From the NCBI RefSeq assembly GCF_016717175.1, contig NZ_JADKFZ010000004.1: a DNA stretch of 64,000 bases; one strand, 5' to 3'. Source of the stretch: Nannocystis sp. (GTDB lineage Bacteria; Myxococcota_A; Polyangia; Nannocystales; Nannocystaceae). Shown piece by piece: positions 11,819 through 47,597 of this stretch (positions within the stretch are counted from its first letter, which is position 1; each line of letters begins with the position of its first letter). The notes under the pieces were generated by a model that did no database searches, was not told the origin of the DNA, and was given only the letters and a program-made list of their open reading frames with translations. A program made the position numbers and the translations under genes.

Positions 11819-11898
11819 ATCGCCGAGTCGGCGGCGGGGTGAGCGCGGCGTGTGAAATTGCTGGACGTGCTGGTGGGGTCGCGGCGATCGTCACGCCG

Positions 11899-12714
11899 AT
11901 GCATCGCATTTCGGTCGCGGCCTTGTTGTTGTTCGCGTGCGGACCCTCGGGCGGCAAGGACCCGTCCTCGACGAGCGAGACCGGCGAGTCCGCGACGGCG
12001 ACGGGCGGGTCGACGACGGTGACGGGCGGGTCGACGACGATGACGCCGACGAGCGACGGGACCGGCGCGACGAGCGACGGGACCGGCGCGGCGAGCGAGG
12101 GGACTGGCGAGACCGCGGGGGTGGATTGCTCGCCGGTCGGGCTGGACGCGTGCCCGGTGACGCAGTGCATCGAGCGCTGGGCCTTCGAGTGCCCGGGCTG
12201 CGGTGTGGAGGTTAACCCGGTGACCTGCTTCGAGATCGATGTCGGCTGCGCCTACCCGCTGCAGAATTGTCCGCTGGCGACGCCCTGCGATCGGGTGTGG
12301 GGGATGGGCTACGACGCGATCGAGGCGTTCGAGAGCGAGGCGGCGGCGCTGTGCATGTTGACGGCGCTGCGCGACGGGACGCCCGGCAGGTTCGAGGTGC
12401 TGTGGGGCGAGATGGGCGACGAGGGCATCAACTACATGCAGGTGTACAGCGGGGGCAAGGGCACGGTGCTGATCGAGTGGGAGGTGGACTGTCAGGGCTG
12501 CCCGGAGTCGGGGGCGGTCGGTCGCTCGGGCCAGCTGACCCTTCAGCCAGGTAGCTACTTCGACGACTGTCTGGCGGCGCCGGACACCGCGTCGCTGATC
12601 CAGTGCGTGTTTGGCTTCGTCGACTTCGCCGCCGGTCAGCCGCCGCCGGACGCCTACGCGCCGCCGTTCACGACCGGCGAGTGCGCGTCGCTGGATCTGA
12701 GCTGCCCGACCTGA
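11899..12714 (+). CDS. secreted Cys-rich lipoprotein, hypothetical
   Basis: MHRISVAALLLFACGPSGG lipobox, Thr/Gly-rich linker, then a Cys-rich domain (>14 Cys). Confidence 0.7.
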   Translation: MHRISVAALLLFACGPSGGKDPSSTSETGESATATGGSTTVTGGSTTMTPTSDGTGATSDGTGAASEGTGETAGVDCSPVGLDACPVTQCIERWAFECPGCGVEVNPVTCFEIDVGCAYPLQNCPLATPCDRVWGMGYDAIEAFESEAAALCMLTALRDGTPGRFEVLWGEMGDEGINYMQVYSGGKGTVLIEWEVDCQGCPESGAVGRSGQLTLQPGSYFDDCLAAPDTASLIQCVFGFVDFAAGQPPPDAYAPPFTTGECASLDLSCPT

Positions 12715-17930: not shown

Positions 17931-18671
17931 TCATGGGCAGTTCTGGACCGGGAGGTCGGTGACCTGCATCGGCTCGCTGGCGGGCACCCAGGGCATGTCC
18001 TGCGGGAAGTCGAGGGTGAGGTCGAGGTCGACTGTGTGCGGGCAGCCGAGCATCGGGTCGATGATGAAGTCGACGGTGCCGGCGCCGGCGATCGCGGCGA
18101 CGCCCATGTTGCCAGGCATGCCGTCGAGGCAGCCGGCGACGCCCTGGGTGATGTTGGCGTTCTGGGCGCCCCACTCGGCGGGGGCGACGATCTTGAGGTT
18201 GGGGTCGCCTTGCGTGGGGTGGGCGACGTGGAGCGTGGTGCAGCGATCGTTCACCACGTCGGCCTTGTGGATCAGGACGTGGTCGAGGCCGCCGGCGAAG
18301 AAGAAGGCGACGTACTGGGCGTCGGGGTCGACGCCGGTGGTGGTGTCGGTGGTGCTGGTCGTGGTGCTGGTCTCACCGGTGGTGCTGGTCTCACCGGTGG
18401 TGGCGTCGCTGGTGGCGGCGTGGGTGGTGATGCTGGCGTGCGTAGTGGCGAGGCCAGTGTCGTGGCCGGTGTCGTGGCCGCTGTCGGTGGTGGTCGACGG
18501 GGTGGTGTCGCTCGAGAGCGGGCTGGTCGGGACGTCGCCGGTGTCGTCGGGGGTCGTGGTGACGTCGGTGGCGCCGGCGGTGCTGCTGGTGCCGGCGGTC
18601 TCGCCGGTGCTGTCGGCCTTGTCGGGGCCGCAGGCGGCGAGGAGGGGCAGAACCAGGAGAAGGCGAGTCAT
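17931..18671 (-). CDS. lipoprotein with Thr/Ser-rich linker and C-terminal Cys-containing domain
   Basis: MTRLLLVLPLLAACGPDKAD lipobox. Linker has TTGETSTTGETSTTTSTTDTTTG repeats. Folded-looking C-terminal ~120 aa. Confidence 0.65.
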   Translation of the reverse strand: MTRLLLVLPLLAACGPDKADSTGETAGTSSTAGATDVTTTPDDTGDVPTSPLSSDTTPSTTTDSGHDTGHDTGLATTHASITTHAATSDATTGETSTTGETSTTTSTTDTTTGVDPDAQYVAFFFAGGLDHVLIHKADVVNDRCTTLHVAHPTQGDPNLKIVAPAEWGAQNANITQGVAGCLDGMPGNMGVAAIAGAGTVDFIIDPMLGCPHTVDLDLTLDFPQDMPWVPASEPMQVTDLPVQNCP

Positions 18672-18729: not shown

Positions 18730-19142
18730 TCAGGGGCACACGCAGCGGACCTTGTCGCCGCCGTTCGGGACCTTGCCGGTCTGGCCGCAGTCGAGGTCGT
18801 AGCGGGCGCCGGTACAGCGTTGGGCGCCCTTCCCGTCGGGGCTGCAGGCGGAGTACATCTCGACGCAGCCGTCGCCGAGGCCGGGGCGCGGGTGGAGGTC
18901 GCGGTGGCCGGCGAGCGGAGGGGGCGGGGCGGCGGGCGGTGGAGTTGGTGGGGTTTCGGCGAGCGGGGGTGGGGGTGTCGGAGGCGTCGGTGGGGTTTCG
19001 GCGATTGGGGGTGGTGGTGTCGGAGGCGTCGGGGGGTGGGTGCGGTCGGGGGTGTCGGTGGCGTCGGGGCGGCGGGCTTGGTCGGCTCGGTCGGGGCGGT
19101 GCAGGCGAGGAGCAGGGCGCCGAGGAGGAGGAGGCGGTGCAT
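18730..19142 (-). pseudogene. small Pro-rich lipoprotein with 6-Cys C-terminal domain, split by an apparent 1-nt frameshift in a C6 run
   Basis: Signal MHRLLLLGALLLAC in one frame from ATG 19142. The C-terminal GCVEMYSACSPDGKGAQRCTGARYDLDCGQTGKVPNGGDKVRCVCP lies in the +1 frame ending at 18730. The frames join if the run acccaCCCCCCgacg has one extra C. The DNA carries (TPPTPP) repeats. Confidence 0.5.
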
Positions 19143-19190
19143 GGTGGGACGATAACCTGGGTGGGAGCGCGGGCGGTGGGGCACGGGCCG

Positions 19191-19272
19191 GGGTGGGGGG
19201 GGGGGGGGGGGGGGGGGGCGGGGGGGGGGGGCGGGGGGGGGGGGGGGCCCGGGGGGGGGGGGGGGGGGGGGT
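19191..19272. repeat. ~80-nt near-pure poly-G (poly-C on the minus strand) homopolymeric tract
   Basis: gggtgggggg gggggggggg ggggggggcg gggggggggg gcgggggggg gggggggccc ggggggggggggggggggggg read directly. Lies 50-130 nt upstream of the minus-strand lipoprotein start at 19142. Confidence 0.95.
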
Positions 19273-19618
19273 GGGGCCCTGGGGCCCGGGGGCCCGGGGG
19301 CGCCGCCCCGCGCCGCGGGGGGCCCTCCGGCGCGCGACGCCTCCGCTAAAGGCAAGGCGGTCGGCGTCGCCGAGAGCCGGCCCCACCCCGGCCCTGAATG
19401 GGGTGACGTCGCTGCGCGGTATGTAGCAGCGAATGCGACGGGTTGCACTCGATATGTCGCATTGCTGTGAGCCTCGAAGCGCTCACCGTTCAATGCACTC
19501 AAATGGGTCCGGGGCAGTCCTGCGGAGCGTCCGTGTCGGGCGCGCACATTGCTGTCGGGCCCATGTCGCCGCAACAATCGTCGTGGCTGCAGAGGATGCA
19601 ACTCCATTCGAAGCAGGC

Positions 19619-19832
19619 CGTGATGCGTCCAATGTGAATGAGTTGTGGTCGCCGTGTGGCACCTTTCGTTCCTGTCCGAAGAGGCAGGTTGCGAGTCTCA
19701 GGCCGGGGCGGGCCTCGGCGACGCCGTGATGCATGCAATGTGAATGAGTTGTGGTCGCCGTGTGGCACCTTTCGTTCCTGTCCGAAGAGGCAGGTTACGA
19801 GTCTCAGGGCCGGGGCGGGTCCGGCCTCGGCA
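19619..19832. repeat. 107-bp tandem duplication (2 copies) of a lower-GC element
   Basis: gtgatgcgtccaatgtgaatgagttgtggtcgccgtgtggcacctttcgttcctgtccgaagaggcaggttgcgagtctcaggccggggcggg... repeats from 19726 with ~6 mismatches. Copy 2 ends in the hairpin GGCCGGggcgggtCCGGCC. Confidence 0.9.
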
Positions 19833-20013
19833 GGGCCGACCGTACCGTCCTTTAGCGGAGGCTTCGCTTGCCGGAGGGCCGACGGGGGGGTCGACCGAGT
19901 CAAGGGGCGCCGTGGAGAACGAAGTTCTCCAAAGGCGAACCCGCCCTGTCTGAGGCCCTGACCCCCGTCGGACATCCGGCTTCTCGAGGATACGCGCGCG
20001 CCCGCCGGACCCG

Positions 20014-20170
20014 CCCCGGTCCGTGCCACGATACTCGCGGAGTCCTGCTGTGATAGCGAGGATACTCGCGGAGTCCTGCTGTGATAGCCCGGTCCGTGCC
20101 ACGATACTCGCGGAGTCCTGCTGTGATAGGCCGGTCCGTGCCTTGATATTCGCGGACCTGCGATAGCGAG
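20014..20170. repeat. 41-bp tandem repeat (~3.5 copies), lower-GC
   Basis: cccggtccgtgccacgatactcgcggagtcctgctgtgatag repeated, last copy degenerate. Immediately 3' of the cbiX stop on the minus strand. Confidence 0.85.
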
Positions 20171-20180
20171 GGGTCGGCCT

Positions 20181-20558
20181 TCAGGGCAGCTGGGCGCGGC
20201 GCAGGGCGGCGGCGGCGAGGGCGTCGAGCACGGGCTCGTCCATGCCGATCGCGCCGGGGCTCAGGTGGAGGGTCAGCTGCGGGTATGCGGCCTGGACGGC
20301 GGCGATGAGGGCCGGGACGTCGCGCTTGATGTGTTTGCCGCCGGGGCTGAGGAACAGGGGGACGACGGCGATCGTGCGGTGGTCCGTGGCGAGCCTGGCG
20401 ATCGCGGCGGCGAGGGTGGGCCCGTGCTCGAGGGTGGCGACGTGGACCGGCGTGTCCGGGCTGAGCAGGCGGAGGCGAGCCGCGGTGAGCTCGACCGGGG
20501 CGAGCCAGTCGGGGTCGGGGCTGCCGTGGGCGAGCAGGACGATCGCGTCGGCGATCAT
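20181..20558 (-). CDS. cbiX: sirohydrochlorin cobalto/ferro-chelatase CbiX (small form)
   Basis: MIADAIVLLAHGSPDPDW...VVPLFLSPGGKHIKRDVP matches CbiX/SirB motifs. ATG overlaps the serA stop (ATGA). Confidence 0.8.
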   Translation of the reverse strand: MIADAIVLLAHGSPDPDWLAPVELTAARLRLLSPDTPVHVATLEHGPTLAAAIARLATDHRTIAVVPLFLSPGGKHIKRDVPALIAAVQAAYPQLTLHLSPGAIGMDEPVLDALAAAALRRAQLP

Positions 20559-21760
20559 GCGCGGGCGGCTCGCAGCTCGACGGCGAGGATCGAGGCGTGG
20601 TCGCGCAGGCGCTGCAGGAGGGCGGGCGTGGGCTCCTGCTCGAAGGTGATGGTGGCGCAGGCTGCCTGGCCGCCGGCGAAGATGATGTTGCTCATGTTCT
20701 GCACGTTGACCTGCTCCTCGCGCAGGGCCGTGAGCACGCCGGCGAGCACGCCGACGTGGTCGAGGTGGCGGATGACGAGGCTGTAGCGGGTGCTGCGGTC
20801 CGCGAGGTTGACGCTGTGGTGGACCACGCCGTGGGCGGCGTAGTCGTGGACGATGCGCAGGACCTCCTCGGCGATCGCGGCCTCGGCCTGCTCGGTGGAG
20901 GCGCCGATGTGCGGGGTGGCGTAGATGTCCGGGAGCTCGGCGGCGAGGCTCTTGTAGCTGGCCTTGCTGTCGGCGGGCTCGCCCTCGAAGACGTCGAGGC
21001 CGGCGCGCAGCTGGCCGCTGCGGACGGCGGCGGCGAGGGCGGCGTCGTCGACCACGCCGCCGCGCGAGGTGTGGAGGACGATGCTGCCGGGGCGCAGGAG
21101 GGCGAGCTGCTCGGCGCCGATGAGGTGGTGGGTCGCCTTGTTGAAGGGGACGTGGACGCTGACGACATCGGCGGCGCAGAGGAGATCGGCGAGGGACGGC
21201 TGGGGGGTGACGCCGAGGTGCTCGTAGAGCTCGGGGCCGGGTATCTGCGGGTCGTAGGCGAGGAGCTTCATGCCGAAGGCGCGGGCGCGGACGGCGACCT
21301 CGCGGGCGATGACGCCGAAGCCGACGAGGCCGAGGGTCTGGCCCTTGATGCCGCGGGCCTTGCCGAACTTGCCCTTGTTCCACGTGCCCTGGCGCAGCTC
21401 GAGGGTGGCGTCGACGATGCGGCGGTCGAGCGCGAGGAGCAGGCCCATGGTGAGCTCGGCGACGGCGATGGCGTTCTTGCCGGGGCAGTTGGCGACGAAG
21501 ATGCCGCGGGCGCTGGCGGCCTTGAGGTCGATGGTGTTGACGCCGGCGCCGGCGCGGATGACCAGCGAGAGGTTGGCGCTGGCCTGCATCGCGGCGGCGT
21601 TGACGACGGTGGATCGGACGACGAGGATGTCGGCGCGGGTCTCGGCGATCGCGGCGGGCAGGTCGGCCTCGCCGAGCTCGGGGCGGTACACGACCTCGCC
21701 TGTGCGGGCCAGGATGTCGCGGCCCTGGGTCGGGAACTTGTCGGCGATCAGCACCAGCAT
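20555..21760 (-). CDS. serA: D-3-phosphoglycerate dehydrogenase with C-terminal ACT domain
   Basis: GLVGFGVIAREVA NAD-binding GxGxxG, 2-hydroxyacid dehydrogenase catalytic HIGASTEQA, C-terminal ACT-like domain. ~400 aa. Confidence 0.9.
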   Translation of the reverse strand: MLVLIADKFPTQGRDILARTGEVVYRPELGEADLPAAIAETRADILVVRSTVVNAAAMQASANLSLVIRAGAGVNTIDLKAASARGIFVANCPGKNAIAVAELTMGLLLALDRRIVDATLELRQGTWNKGKFGKARGIKGQTLGLVGFGVIAREVAVRARAFGMKLLAYDPQIPGPELYEHLGVTPQPSLADLLCAADVVSVHVPFNKATHHLIGAEQLALLRPGSIVLHTSRGGVVDDAALAAAVRSGQLRAGLDVFEGEPADSKASYKSLAAELPDIYATPHIGASTEQAEAAIAEEVLRIVHDYAAHGVVHHSVNLADRSTRYSLVIRHLDHVGVLAGVLTALREEQVNVQNMSNIIFAGGQAACATITFEQEPTPALLQRLRDHASILAVELRAARA

Positions 21761-44738: not shown

Positions 44739-45735
44739 TCAGGAGGTGGCGATCACGGCGATGCCCAGGACGATGAGGTAGGGGACGAAGGGGAGCAGGC
44801 CGACGCGCACGAGCAGGGTCATGAGGGCGCGCAGGGTCAGGCTGCCGACCGCGAAGCTGGCGGCGAAGCCGAGGGCGTAGCTGGTCGGGGCGATGCTCGT
44901 GGCGCTGCCGTGCTGCCACAGGTCGAGCGACTCCTTGAGCGAGGCGCCGAGGATCGCGGGGATCGCGAGCAGGAAGGAGAAGCGGGCCGCGGGCAGGCGA
45001 CCGAGGCCGAGGGCCATCGCGGCGGCCATGGTCGAGCCGCTGCGCGAGATGCCGGGCAGGATCGCTACCAGCTGGGCGAGGCCGATGACGAGGCCCTGCC
45101 ACGGGCGCGGGGCCTCGAGGCTGGCGACGCTGTCGTCGCGGCGGTGCGAGAAGGCGAGCAGGGCGGCGGTGATGAGGAAGCCGCAGCCGATCCAGCGGGT
45201 GCTGGTCTCGGCGGCGAGGACGATCGCCATGGTCGTGTCGCTGAGCGCGAGGGCCAGCGGGAGGGTGCCGAGGATGAGCGCGAGCAGGAGGGCGCGGGCG
45301 GTGTTCAGGGGCGGGCCGACGCGCGCGGGGACCAGGTCGCGCGAGGGGCCAGGTGGTGGGCCAGGGTTAGCACCTGGCCGGGCCCGCGGCGGGGGGGGGC
45401 CAGGGGCCTGGCCGTGAACCTGGCCCATTGGACAGGTCGTCGGCGAGCGCGAGGGGGTCGCCGACGGGGGCTGTGGGGGTCCCGGTGTGGTGGACGATCG
45501 CGACCTGGCGCGGCTGGAACACGGCGCGGGCGAGGGCGCCGAGGTCGTGGCGGTAGAACAGCAGGACGGCGACCAGGGTGCCGGCGTGGACGACGATGTT
45601 GAAGGTGTGGCCGCCGCTGGCCGCGTCGACGCCGAGCCAGGTCTGGGCCAGGGCGAGGTGGCCCGAGGAGGAGATCGGGAGGAACTCGGCGACGCCCTGG
45701 AGGGCGCCGAGGGCGAGGGCCAGCAGCGGGCCCAT
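44739..45735 (-). CDS. uppP: undecaprenyl-diphosphatase (UppP/BacA), interrupted by a 1-nt frameshift at a C9 (G9 on plus) homopolymer at 45391-45399
   Basis: N-terminal half (MGPLLALALGALQGVAEFLPISSSGHL...) is in the frame of track ORF 45367.. The C-terminal half (...LLLALILGTLPLALALSD...PGISRSGSTMAAAMALG...) is in ORF 44739..45428. Removing one C from the C9 run joins them. Confidence 0.75.
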
Positions 45736-45746
45736 GCCGGGGTCGC

Positions 45747-47597
45747 TCACGCATCCTCCGCGGGGGCCTCGTTGGCGGCGGAGCTGTCCTCCGGGACAGC
45801 CGCGGACGCGTGCTCGGCGGAGCTGTCCTCCGGGACAGCCGCGGACGCGTGCTCGGCGGAGCTGTCCTCCGGGACAGCCGCGCGCGCGCGCTCGACGACG
45901 CCGCGCTCCCACAGCTGCTCGTCGATCGCGCGCATGAGGGCCGCGGTGCTGCGGCGCTCGTTGGCGCTGATGAAGTAGGTGTGGCGGTCGGCGTCGGCGC
46001 GGCGCTGGTTGAGCTCGTCGGGACCCAGGCGGTCGATCTTGTTGTAGACCCACAGGCGGGGCACGGCGCCGGCACCGATCTCGCCGAGGATCGCCTCGAC
46101 GGTGGCGCGCTGCTGGTCCTGGTCGGGGTCGCTGGCGTCGACGACGACGAGCAGGAGGTCGGCCTCGGCGACCTCCTCGAGGGTGGCGGAGAAGGCCTGG
46201 ACGAGCGCGGGGGGGAGGTCGCGGATGAAGCCGACGGTGTCGAGGAGGACGACCTCGTAGTCCTTGGGGAAGCGGATCCTGCGGACGCTGGGGTCGAGGG
46301 TGGCGAACAGCTTGTCCTCGGCGACGACGGCGCTGTCGGTGACGGTGTTGAGCAGGCTGCTCTTGCCGGCGTTGGTGTAGCCGACGATCGCGACCACGGG
46401 GACGCCGGTGCGCCGGCGCAGGGCTCGACGCTGGTCGCGGCGCTGCTTGAGCGCGAGCAGGCGGCGCTCGAGGTCGTGGATGCGCTCCTTGGCGCGGCGG
46501 CGGTCGATCTCGAGTTTGGTCTCGCCGGGGCCGCGACCACCGATGCCGCCGGCGAGCCGCGACATGGCGGTGCCGTGGCCGATCATCCGCGGCAGGAGGT
46601 AGCGCAGCTGGGCCAGCTCGACCTGCAGCTTGCCGTCGGCCGAGGTGGCGTGCTGGGCGAAGATGTCGAGGATGAGGGTGGTGCGGTCGATGACCTTGAG
46701 GTCGGTGCGCTCGCCGATCTCGCGGGCCTGCGAGGGGGTGAGGTCGGGGTCGCAGATCAGGAGCTCGACGTCCTGGGCGAGGGCCCGCACGAGCACGTCG
46801 CGCAGCTTGCCCTGGCCGAAGAAGGTGCGCGGGTCGGGGCCGGGGCGGCGCTGGGTGGCGAGGTCGACTAAGTGGAGGCCGTCGGTGCGGCACAGCTCGC
46901 GCAGCTCCTGCTCGCGGGCGTGCAGCTCGGGGCCCTCGCCCTGGTGGATCATGAGGGCCATGGCGCGGGTGCCCTGCGACTCGGCGCGCGCGCCCGCGGT
47001 GGCGGCGACGAGGCCGGCCTCGAGGTCGCGGATGAAGCCGAGGAAGTCGGAGGGCATGTCCGCGGCGGGCCGCATGCCGGTGGTGTGGCCGGGGTCGTCG
47101 TCGTCGCGGGCGAGCACGCCGAGCGGGACGCGCGGGAAGCCGCGCACGACGAAGATGTCCTTTGAGCCAGGTTGTGGCGGGGCCAGGCTGGCGAGGTCGA
47201 TCTGGACGCCGGCGGGGCCGCGGTGGATCGCGGCGAGGAGGTCGAGGCGCAGCTTGGCGAGGTCGGCGAGCTCCTCGCGGGTCGGCGGGTCGGGGACCAG
47301 GTGGGTGAGGACCAGCCGGACGCCGCGCAGGCGGCCGCCCTGGCCGCGCACGCGGGTGAACTCCGGGAGGGCGAGGCTGTGGGCGTCGCCGAGGATGACG
47401 CGCTGGACGCGGCCGCGGCGGTCGATGAAGAGGCCGAGCTGGCGGTTGAGCTGGTGCGAGAGCTCGAGCAGGTCGCGCGCGAGCACGGCCGAGATGACGC
47501 TCGTCGGCGGGACCTGGCGCGCGCCGAGCCGCTGCAGCGCGCGGGCCTGGCTGCTCTTGAGGTTCGCCGTGTCGCCGTGGACGATCGGGTCGCTCAC
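45747..47597 (-). CDS. hflX: GTPase HflX with C-terminal repeat extension
   Basis: G-domain VAIVGYTNAGKSSLLN...DTVGF...NKID. N-terminal HflX domain. GTG start overlaps the upstream gene's stop. C-terminal (AAVPEDSSAEHAS)x3 encoded by the 45778-45895 repeat. Confidence 0.85.
   Translation of the reverse strand: MSDPIVHGDTANLKSSQARALQRLGARQVPPTSVISAVLARDLLELSHQLNRQLGLFIDRRGRVQRVILGDAHSLALPEFTRVRGQGGRLRGVRLVLTHLVPDPPTREELADLAKLRLDLLAAIHRGPAGVQIDLASLAPPQPGSKDIFVVRGFPRVPLGVLARDDDDPGHTTGMRPAADMPSDFLGFIRDLEAGLVAATAGARAESQGTRAMALMIHQGEGPELHAREQELRELCRTDGLHLVDLATQRRPGPDPRTFFGQGKLRDVLVRALAQDVELLICDPDLTPSQAREIGERTDLKVIDRTTLILDIFAQHATSADGKLQVELAQLRYLLPRMIGHGTAMSRLAGGIGGRGPGETKLEIDRRRAKERIHDLERRLLALKQRRDQRRALRRRTGVPVVAIVGYTNAGKSSLLNTVTDSAVVAEDKLFATLDPSVRRIRFPKDYEVVLLDTVGFIRDLPPALVQAFSATLEEVAEADLLLVVVDASDPDQDQQRATVEAILGEIGAGAVPRLWVYNKIDRLGPDELNQRRADADRHTYFISANERRSTAALMRAIDEQLWERGVVERARAAVPEDSSAEHASAAVPEDSSAEHASAAVPEDSSAANEAPAEDA
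45778..45895. repeat. 39-bp in-frame tandem repeat x3 at the 3' end of hflX, containing the near-palindrome CTGTCCTCCGGGACAG
   Basis: ggcggagctgtcctccgggacagccgcggacgcgtgctc repeated three times. Confidence 0.85.

What the first reader, a model, noticed from the sequence alone, without database searches (positions are those of the whole stretch)
19191..19272. ~80-nt homopolymeric G tract upstream of a small lipoprotein gene
An almost uninterrupted G run of about 80 nt is extraordinary for any bacterial chromosome. If real, it would form G-quadruplexes and be hypermutable, and it sits at -50 to -130 of the 19142 lipoprotein start (a contingency-locus layout). The gene downstream is also frameshifted at a C6 run. 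It could equally be a two-colour-chemistry poly-G sequencing artefact trapped in the assembly.
Basis: seen in the sequence. Interest (0 to 1): 0.6.

Follow-up and report, generated by a model that had tools for sequence, protein, structure and literature searches.

The report
Unconserved poly-G block in Nannocystis hairpin
The ~80-base G run is really in the sequence, but it is a one-off G/C-only block that replaces the core of a conserved hairpin element in a decaying stretch of a Nannocystis genome; close relatives lack it, so it is not a conserved gene switch, and only raw reads can show whether it is real DNA or a bad consensus.

Summary
Observation confirmed. Window 19190-19271 reads GGGGT-G24-C-G12-C-G15-CCC-G21 (75 G in 82 nt). 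It lies 49-130 nt upstream of the ATG (19142, minus strand) of a small lipoprotein gene that is one base short of being in frame. A composition model gives runs of at most 14.

The organism is a Nannocystis (Myxococcota). The tract is part of a 127-nt G/C-only block (19195-19321) inside a palindromic element. Relatives that are 90-95% identical where they align (L100, L103) have 134 nt of ordinary, strongly hairpinned sequence at that spot, and L102 has 24 nt. None has a G/C run. Their lipoprotein genes are intact and share the same proximal upstream motif (GGTTATCGTC), which lies downstream of the tract.

The contingency-switch reading is therefore not supported. The locus is degenerate: an upstream gene remnant, a broken element and a frameshifted gene.

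Real or artefact is unresolved. I lean slightly (0.5) to a genuine, strain-specific G-run expansion whose exact length is unreliable. The flanks are collinear. An intact copy of the same hairpin 600 nt away assembled cleanly. The window's only other broken gene (uppP) breaks at its C9 run, which suggests a platform prone to homopolymer-length errors and not a dark-cycle poly-G artefact. A consensus or polishing artefact remains about 0.4.

The parts
19190..19271 (+). Near-homopolymeric G tract: GGGG T G24 C G12 C G15 CCC G21 (poly-C on the gene's strand)
19195..19321 (+). The full 127-nt G/C-only block between two conserved anchors (GGCACGGGCCGGGGT at 19180-19194 and GCCCTCCGGC at 19322-19331). 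It contains the tract plus degenerate G(4-5)CCC units (19273-19301). Relatives have 134 nt (L103) or 24 nt (L102) of ordinary sequence here.
19185..19397 (-). Palindromic element, copy B (orthologous copy, next to the lipoprotein gene). The 5' half is intact (97% identical to L103). The core and part of the 3' terminal-stem arm are replaced by the G/C block, and only 14 bp of the 20-bp terminal stem remain.
   Evidence: (I11)
19804..20022 (+). Palindromic element, copy A: an intact long form in inverted orientation. It includes the inner hairpin, of which 59 nt are identical to L100 and L103.
   Evidence: (I1, I6, I7)
18730..19142 (-). Small lipoprotein gene (lipobox LLAC, Pro-rich linker built of 42-nt repeats, 6-Cys C-terminal domain). 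413 nt, with a -1 frameshift at 19031-19036. Intact in five relatives (120-136 aa).
19143..19189 (-). Conserved proximal upstream region of the lipoprotein gene, including GGTTATCGTC 5 nt before the ATG. It is shared with L083, L100, L101 and L102. The tract begins immediately upstream of it.
19490..19618 (-). Remnant of the 3' end of an LRR-domain gene that is intact upstream of the element in L102
19617..19825 (+). 106-nt tandem duplication (2 copies, about 90-95% identical). The second copy runs into the 5' end of element copy A.
   Evidence: (D4)
20015..20171 (+). 42-nt direct repeats, 4 copies, just downstream of cbiX. Also present in the 94%-identical short-read contig L099, which ends in them.
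   Evidence: (D3)
20181..20558 (-). cbiX, the last conserved gene before the 1,038-nt non-coding gap. In L083/L084 the gap to the small lipoprotein gene is only 66 nt.
45391..45399 (+). G9 (C9 on the coding strand), the second-longest homopolymer in the window. The uppP/bacA gene changes frame here, which is relevant to judging the assembly's homopolymer accuracy.

Best explanation
The tract is most likely a genuine but evolutionarily very young, strain-specific low-complexity expansion. It is G runs within an array of G(n)CCC units, on the strand that is G-run-rich genome-wide. It has replaced the core of a palindromic hairpin element in a stretch of the Nannocystis chromosome that is decaying. 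It has no conserved regulatory role. The lipoprotein gene beside it is itself frameshifted, the gene upstream survives only as a remnant, and the element, probably a terminator or insulator hairpin, is destroyed. If real, it would be G-quadruplex-prone and length-unstable, and it would be a fragile site and not a switch. The exact number of G's and the interruptions should not be trusted, because the assembly shows homopolymer-length errors elsewhere. Shown: the anatomy, the non-conservation, the replacement of the hairpin core, the degenerate state of the locus, and the lineage-wide G-run strand bias. Inferred: that the tract exists in the DNA, that it arose by slippage under relaxed selection, and that the assembly comes from a platform prone to homopolymer errors.
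For: (1) The flanks are collinear and syntenic. serA-cbiX on one side and small lipoprotein-lipoprotein 2-NCS1 permease on the other are in the ancestral order seen in L083/L084. The immediate flanks (element 5' half; proximal upstream region) match L103, L100 and L102 up to the block's edges. So the block is not a chimeric join. (2) The tract is internal and interrupted, and it grades into (GGGGCCC)n-like units at 19273-19301, like a decaying microsatellite. (3) Copy A of the same element, with the same very stable inner hairpin, lies about 600 nt away and is assembled cleanly, with 59/59 nt identical to L100 and L103. The platform therefore could read that structure, so a structure-induced read failure at copy B is not a sufficient explanation. 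(4) G lies on the strand where G runs of 4 or more outnumber C runs 699:56. The same asymmetry is mirrored in independent short-read assemblies of relatives. (5) The only other broken gene in 64 kb is uppP, at the C9 run. Thirteen orthologue comparisons are single-frame and L098 shows 10 substitutions and no indels in 1,503 nt. Rare errors confined to G/C runs are typical of long-read consensus, and such platforms span tracts physically and are not known to invent poly-G. The window also runs through repeats where three short-read assemblies of relatives broke (L001 in the element, L099 in the 42-nt repeats, L100 in the hairpin). (6) The locus is degenerate: gene remnant at 19490-19618, element z-score -1.3 against -10 for the intact form, and a frameshifted gene. 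That is consistent with relaxed selection.
Against: No bacterial homopolymer-like tract of this size is known to me, and relatives have no run longer than 8 in about 150 kb. The block's length (127 nt) is suspiciously close to the 134 nt it replaces in the nearest relatives, which looks like replacement by garbage and not like an insertion. It contains no A and only 2 T on the + strand, which resembles low-signal base calls. The adjacent gene's frameshift could mark a local drop in consensus quality. No independent assembly of the same strain covers the site: L098, at 99.3%, stops 1.3 kb away. I have no demonstrated mechanism for expanding a C4 run to about 80 nt. The sequencing platform is inferred and not known.
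Confidence: 0.5

Rival explanations
1. Sequencing, assembly or polishing artefact. The true sequence at copy B is the ordinary long-form hairpin core, as in L100 and L103. The 127-nt G/C-only block is a bad consensus, for example dark-cycle G calls from two-colour Illumina chemistry incorporated by gap-filling or by a polisher's local reassembly at a coverage hole in a region that is 85-100% GC.
For: The block replaces 134 nt with 127 nt, a near-equal length. It is unique in the window and absent from all relatives. Its composition is almost purely G with C/T interruptions and no A. The replaced segment is the most stable hairpin of the element, -97.7 kcal/mol, inside a region that is 80-100% GC, which is the kind of place where short-read coverage drops. 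The neighbouring gene carries a 1-nt indel although every orthologue is intact. Poly-G is the known signature of no-signal cycles in two-colour chemistry (my own knowledge).
Against: Dark-cycle tails are at read 3' ends and are pure G. They give contig-end poly-G, not an internal, reproducibly interrupted tract joined in register to unique sequence on both sides (inference from de Bruijn assembly logic). No residue-level trace of the expected sequence survives in the block: 56-60 ungapped matches against a sliding null of 50.7 +/- 6.3, p 0.08-0.22. A simple channel-loss transform does not reproduce it. Copy A, with the same hairpin, is assembled correctly. The uppP C9 frameshift points to a platform prone to homopolymer errors and not to Illumina.
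Confidence: 0.4
2. Functional contingency locus. Length changes in the poly-C/G tract upstream of the lipoprotein gene switch its transcription on and off, with a second switch at the C6 run in the coding sequence.
For: The tract lies upstream of a surface-lipoprotein-type gene, and the gene is out of frame at a short C run. The layout superficially resembles promoter-associated homopolymer switches.
Against: No orthologous upstream region has any G/C tract. The conserved proximal region lies downstream of the tract. The tract starts at -49, outside the -10/-35 spacer where such switches act. The tract is 5-8 times longer than functional switches (PMC6321876). The coding-sequence break looks like loss of a base that created the C6 run (CCCCACCG to CCCCCCG), not a change in length of a conserved run. 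Other G/C runs in the genome are short, so there is no phasome-like pattern.
Confidence: 0.05

Closest known systems
Homopolymeric-tract phase-variation (contingency) loci, e.g. poly-G/C tracts of Campylobacter, Neisseria, Helicobacter and Bordetella fim promoters
   Same: A G/C homopolymer close to the 5' end of a surface-protein-type gene, which is expected to be prone to slippage.
   Different: The tract is 5-8 times longer and is broken into four runs. It lies upstream of the conserved promoter-proximal region instead of within the spacer or coding sequence. It is absent from all orthologous loci, and there is no genome-wide set of such tracts. Functional tracts peak at 9-10 nt (PMC6321876).
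Two-colour (NextSeq/NovaSeq) poly-G dark-cycle artefact
   Same: Almost pure G with no A; the interruptions are C and T.
   Different: It is internal to a contig of at least 64 kb, has unique collinear sequence on both sides, and is reproducibly interrupted and partly periodic (G(n)CCC). The classical artefact sits at read and contig ends.
G-rich expandable repeats that form G-quadruplexes or hairpins, e.g. the human C9orf72 (GGGGCC)n repeat
   Same: The right flank is an array of GGGGCCC-type units (19273-19301) and the tract looks like the same units with expanded G runs. The sequence is G4-prone and palindrome-prone (GGGCCC).
   Different: This is a bacterial chromosome. The unit is irregular, and no evidence of length polymorphism is available.
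REP/BIME-like or MITE-like palindromic intergenic elements and I-shaped (U-tract-less) terminator hairpins of high-GC bacteria
   Same: The element that the tract disrupts has a 20-bp perfect terminal inverted repeat and a long inner hairpin. It sits between convergently or co-directionally transcribed genes, about 70 nt after an upstream stop codon in L001 and L102.
   Different: Very low copy number: two copies in 64 kb, both at this locus, and one exact core hit in all JGI metagenome contigs. No target-site duplication was identified and no Rfam family matches.

Membership tests
SSR-mediated phase-variable (contingency) locus | Repeat tract placed where length changes alter expression (inside the coding sequence, or between or overlapping the -35 and -10 promoter elements) | tested here: not met
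   The tract spans -49 to -130 from the ATG. The upstream segment conserved among orthologues (including GGTTATCGTC at -5 to -14) lies entirely between the tract and the ATG. The promoter itself is not mapped.
SSR-mediated phase-variable (contingency) locus | Tract present, with differing lengths, at the orthologous site in related strains or species | tested here: not met
   L100, L101, L102, L103 and L083/L084 have no G/C run at the site. No same-strain replicate was available.
SSR-mediated phase-variable (contingency) locus | Tract length in the functional range (about 7-15 for poly-G/C) | tested here: not met
   Runs of 24, 12, 15 and 21 within 82 nt, against a peak of 9-10 with 13-15 rare in Campylobacter (PMC6321876).
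SSR-mediated phase-variable (contingency) locus | Length heterogeneity within a population, coupled to ON/OFF expression | not testable with these tools
   Needs reads, clones or expression data.
Two-colour-chemistry poly-G artefact | Poly-G at read 3' ends, hence at contig ends or unsupported junctions | tested here: not met
   The tract is internal, with at least 19 kb and 44 kb of contig on either side. Both flanks are collinear with relatives.
Two-colour-chemistry poly-G artefact | Data produced on a two-colour instrument, with the tract lacking support from high-quality spanning reads | not testable with these tools
   There are no reads and no assembly metadata. The window's genome is not in the searchable collections (best SerA hit 99%).
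Two-colour-chemistry poly-G artefact | Replaces or masks genuine sequence that related genomes possess | tested here: inconclusive
   127 nt occupy the place of 134 nt in L103 and L100, but there is no significant residue-level correspondence. A short form (24 nt) also exists in L102.
MITE/REP-like palindromic element (the element hosting the tract) | Terminal inverted repeats and a strongly folded single strand | tested here: met
   20-bp perfect terminal stem. -97.7 kcal/mol with z = -10 (L103) and z = -6.1 (L102).
MITE/REP-like palindromic element (the element hosting the tract) | Many dispersed copies per genome | tested here: not met
   Two copies in 64 kb, both at this locus. None elsewhere in the fetched loci. 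One exact core hit in JGI metagenome contigs.

The most novel reading that the evidence does not exclude
The tract is real: a roughly 80-nt or longer, nearly pure G tract in a free-living myxobacterium, which to my knowledge would be by far the longest homopolymer-like tract in a bacterial chromosome. In this reading it arose recently by runaway expansion of G runs inside a palindromic element, in a lineage whose replication-strand bias already favours G runs about 12:1. It would be a natural G-quadruplex and fragile site, and a handle on the unusual mutational regime of this Nannocystis clade.
Probability: 0.45. Interest if true: 0.6.

Novelty: new variant of a known kind. Interest (0 to 1): 0.4.

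Why it matters
If the tract is real, it shows that a bacterium with intact housekeeping genes can carry an 80-nt G tract. It also gives a concrete locus for studying G-quadruplex or fragile-site behaviour, and the very strong G-run strand bias of this Nannocystis clade. If it is an artefact, it is a useful warning: a public assembly contains a 127-nt stretch of invented sequence that would be annotated as promoter DNA of a lipoprotein gene. In either case the practical message is the same. The tract is not a conserved regulatory device, and the local sequence, including the frameshifts in the lipoprotein gene and in uppP, should not be used for functional inference until it is verified by reads.

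Tried and rejected
(1) Looked for the source genome by exact protein look-up. It is not in the collection, so there are no metadata or reads.
(2) Rfam at gathering threshold and at permissive threshold on 19000-20300: nothing near the tract. Promoter and terminator consensus scans were uninformative.
(3) Tested whether the 127-nt block is a miscalled, in-register copy of L103's 134 nt. The gapped alignment gave 73 matches against 66 +/- 3 for shuffles. The ungapped register gave 56-60 matches against a sliding null of 50.7 +/- 6.3. Neither is significant. A hand-checked green-channel-loss transform (T to G, A to C) gave about chance agreement.
(4) Tested whether the block is a short-form element (L102's 24 nt) plus insertions. 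The local alignment score was 19 against 20.2 +/- 3 for shuffles, so this is not significant, although the only two A's in the block resemble the 3' terminal-arm motif.
(5) A metagenome scan for the promoter/start pattern found nothing. The second scan, with the element core, found one contig, L103.
(6) Suspected further frameshifts at about 11876, 39171 and 52280 from a frame-tracking Viterbi pass. The two I inspected (11876 and 39171) are ordinary gene boundaries or an antisense shadow; 52280 was not inspected further. The automated stop and start bookkeeping is unreliable at 74% GC and I did not use it.
(7) L098 (99.3% identical) was the best hope for a same-species comparator, but it stops aligning inside cbiX and its tail diverges.
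(8) Literature searches for internal poly-G assembly artefacts and for Nannocystis GC skew returned nothing specific. One apparent hit was to 'polygalacturonase'.
(9) Considered a chimeric join through a poly-G k-mer hub. Rejected because both flanks are syntenic.

Full report
OBSERVATION. The tract is present as described. On the + strand it reads GGGG-T-G24-C-G12-C-G15-CCC-G21-T over 19190-19272. The next-longest homopolymer in the 64 kb is G9. A third-order Markov model of the window gives a longest run averaging 9 (max 14) and at most 57 G in any 82 nt. The tract is the core of a larger anomaly: 19195-19325 (131 nt) contains no A and only two T. The next-longest stretches without A or T in the window are 30 nt, and 132 kb of related sequence has none of 30 nt or more. 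On the minus strand the tract is poly-C at -49 to -130 from the ATG (19142) of a small lipoprotein gene.

ORGANISM AND BACKGROUND COMPOSITION. SerA (20555-21760, minus strand) has its closest relatives in Nannocystis MAGs. The window is 73.8% GC with a GC skew of +0.18 throughout. This skew is real biology. Independent short-read assemblies of relatives, held in the opposite orientation, show -0.14 to -0.24, and the bias sits at third codon positions. G runs of 4 or more outnumber C runs 699:56 in the window, and the same asymmetry is mirrored in relatives (L083 5:108, L088 31:224). The tract therefore lies on the strand that favours G runs genome-wide. No relative has any run longer than 8.

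LOCUS ANATOMY. The gene order on the minus strand is serA, cbiX (20181-20558), 1,038 nt of non-coding DNA, the small lipoprotein (19142-18730), lipoprotein 2 (18671-17931) and an NCS1 permease. More distant relatives (L083/L084) have the same order, but with only 66 nt between cbiX and the small lipoprotein gene. The 91%-SerA species carries 5.4 kb of other genes there (WD40, ECF sigma, Ser/Thr kinase), and L001 carries two beta-propeller genes. This junction is therefore an insertion hotspot. No coding signal exists in the window between 19197 and 20180. The gap contains four 42-nt repeats (20015-20171, also in L099, which ends in them), a palindromic element copy A (19804-20022, +), a 106-nt tandem duplication (19617-19825), a remnant of the 3' end of an LRR-domain gene (about 19490-19618, minus strand; intact in L102), and element copy B (19185-19397, minus strand), which contains the tract.

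THE DECISIVE COMPARISON. Three independent contigs cover the orthologous upstream region. L100 encodes an intact small lipoprotein (P0083) and is about 95% identical to the window in alignable coding positions. L103 is 97% identical to copy B's 5' half. L102 is a more distant relative (66% protein identity). All share the window's sequence up to two anchors: GCCGGAGGGC on the element side and ACCCCGGCCCGTGCC on the gene side. Between the anchors L103 has 134 nt of ordinary sequence, and L100 has the same form as far as its contig reaches. L102 has 24 nt. The window has 127 nt of G/C-only sequence. The intact element is exceptionally structured: a 20-bp perfect terminal stem (GGGCCGGGGTGGGGCCGGCT / AGCCGGCCCCACCCCGGCCC) encloses a long inner hairpin, with -97.7 kcal/mol and z = -10 for L103, and z = -6.1 for the short form. 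The window's copy B keeps 14 bp of the terminal stem and has z = -1.3. The block therefore replaces the hairpin core and part of the 3' arm.

No residue-level homology between the block and the replaced sequence is detectable.

The proximal upstream segment (...CCCGTGCC.CACCGCCCGCGCTCCC...CAGGTTATCGTCC...ATG) is conserved in the window, L083, L100, L101 and L102, and it lies wholly downstream of the tract.

THE NEIGHBOURING GENE AND ASSEMBLY QUALITY. The small lipoprotein gene is 413 nt long. One base is missing at 19031-19036, where the gene's own second 42-nt repeat reads CCCCACCG. Five orthologues are intact at 120-136 aa. Thirteen orthologue comparisons elsewhere are single-frame, and L098 (99.3% identical) differs by 10 substitutions and no indels over 1,503 nt. 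One further gene is broken. In uppP/bacA, Pfam positions 1-72 lie in one frame and 80-256 in another, and the change falls in the ~30-nt interval that contains the C9 run at 45391-45399, the longest ordinary homopolymer in the window; C8 would restore the frame. Two other candidate frame switches that I inspected are normal boundaries. Two indels in 64 kb, both at G/C runs, would extrapolate to hundreds of broken genes per genome if they were real. Residual homopolymer-length errors of a long-read-type consensus are the more economical reading (inference).

WHAT IT IS. Two explanations remain. (A) A real, very recent, strain-specific expansion of G runs within G(n)CCC units, in a locus under relaxed selection (gene remnant, broken element, frameshifted gene), with an unreliable reported length. 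In favour of A:
- The flanks are collinear and syntenic.
- The tract is internal and interrupted, and it grades into GGGGCCC units.
- It lies on the G-run-rich strand.
- The same hairpin is assembled cleanly in copy A, 600 nt away.
- The error signature and the contiguity through repeats, where three short-read assemblies of relatives broke, suggest a platform that spans tracts physically.

(B) A consensus or polishing artefact that replaces the true hairpin core. In favour of B:
- The size is unprecedented.
- The tract is unique to this assembly.
- The replacement has nearly the same length as what it replaces (127 vs 134 nt).
- The composition is G with C/T interruptions and no A.
- A frameshift lies next door.
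- The setting is extreme in GC content and hairpin stability.

The classical dark-cycle mechanism fits poorly, because such tails are terminal and pure G, but polisher or gap-filler misbehaviour cannot be excluded. I put A at about 0.5, B at about 0.4, and the functional contingency-switch reading at about 0.05.

COMPARISON WITH KNOWN SYSTEMS. The tract resembles phase-variation tracts only in being a G/C homopolymer near a surface-protein gene. It fails the tests for position, conservation and length; functional tracts are about 9-10 nt, and 13-15 nt is rare (PMC6321876). Its flank resembles expandable G-rich repeats of the GGGGCC type. The host element resembles REP/MITE-like palindromes or U-tract-less terminator hairpins of high-GC bacteria, but its copy number is very low and it matches no Rfam family.

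VERDICT. The functional interpretation is not supported. Whether the tract is real cannot be decided without reads. Interest is moderate: if real, it is a record-length bacterial G tract tied to an unusual strand-biased mutational regime; if not, it is a local assembly error.

Noticed in passing
window 44739-45792 (minus strand), break at 45391-45399: uppP/bacA (undecaprenyl-diphosphate phosphatase) is split into two frames at a C9 run. Pfam BacA positions 1-72 and 80-256 fall in different ORFs, and C8 would restore the frame. This is either a homopolymer-length error in the assembly or a real slippage pseudogene.
   Followed up: yes
whole window; also L001, L083-L085, L088-L099: Very strong strand asymmetry for a 74% GC genome: GC skew +0.18, and G runs of 4 or more outnumber C runs 699:56. 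It is carried by third codon positions regardless of gene strand and is mirrored in independent short-read assemblies of relatives. Two other Nannocystis loci (L002, L086) lack it locally. I found no literature on it.
   Followed up: partly
window 19804-20022 (+) and 19185-19397 (-); L103 197-410; L102 1123-1240; L100 1-98; L001 13600-13663: A low-copy palindromic element with a 20-bp perfect terminal stem and a long inner hairpin (-97.7 kcal/mol, z = -10). It exists in a long form (about 215 nt) and a short form (about 120 nt). It sits about 70 nt after upstream stop codons and directly upstream of the small lipoprotein gene. It matches no Rfam family and had only one exact core hit in JGI metagenome contigs. 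It may be a terminator or insulator, or a rarely mobile element.
   Followed up: partly
window 19143-20180, compared with L083 2406-2471, L090 11603-17013 and L001 11581-13663: The cbiX / small-lipoprotein junction is an insertion hotspot. Its content differs in each lineage: 66 nt; WD40 + ECF sigma + Ser/Thr kinase, with the small lipoprotein gene lost; two beta-propeller genes; or repeats and remnants.
   Followed up: partly
window 19490-19618 (minus strand): Remnant of the last ~130 nt of an LRR-domain protein gene (Pfam LRR_EndoS and Recep_L_domain in the L102 orthologue). The rest of the gene is missing from the window.
   Followed up: partly
window 19617-19825 and 20015-20171: There is a 106-nt tandem duplication; each copy contains a small hairpin followed by a T-rich stretch. 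There are also four 42-nt direct repeats, two of them 100% identical. The latter are also present in L099 (94% identical), whose contig ends in them. Their function is unknown.
   Followed up: no
window 18730-19142 and 17931-18671 (minus strand); also 11839-12714 (+): A Nannocystis-specific pair of lipoproteins with no Pfam match. The small one has a Pro-rich linker built from 42-nt repeats, whose copy number varies between relatives (120-137 aa), and a 6-Cys C-terminal domain. A third lipoprotein with a similar N-terminus (MHRISVAALLLFACGP...) lies at 11839-12714.
   Followed up: partly
L098 2281-2379: The last ~100 nt of this wastewater-metagenome contig, which is 99.3% identical to the window, diverge completely from the window inside cbiX. 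This is probably a chimeric contig end.
   Followed up: no
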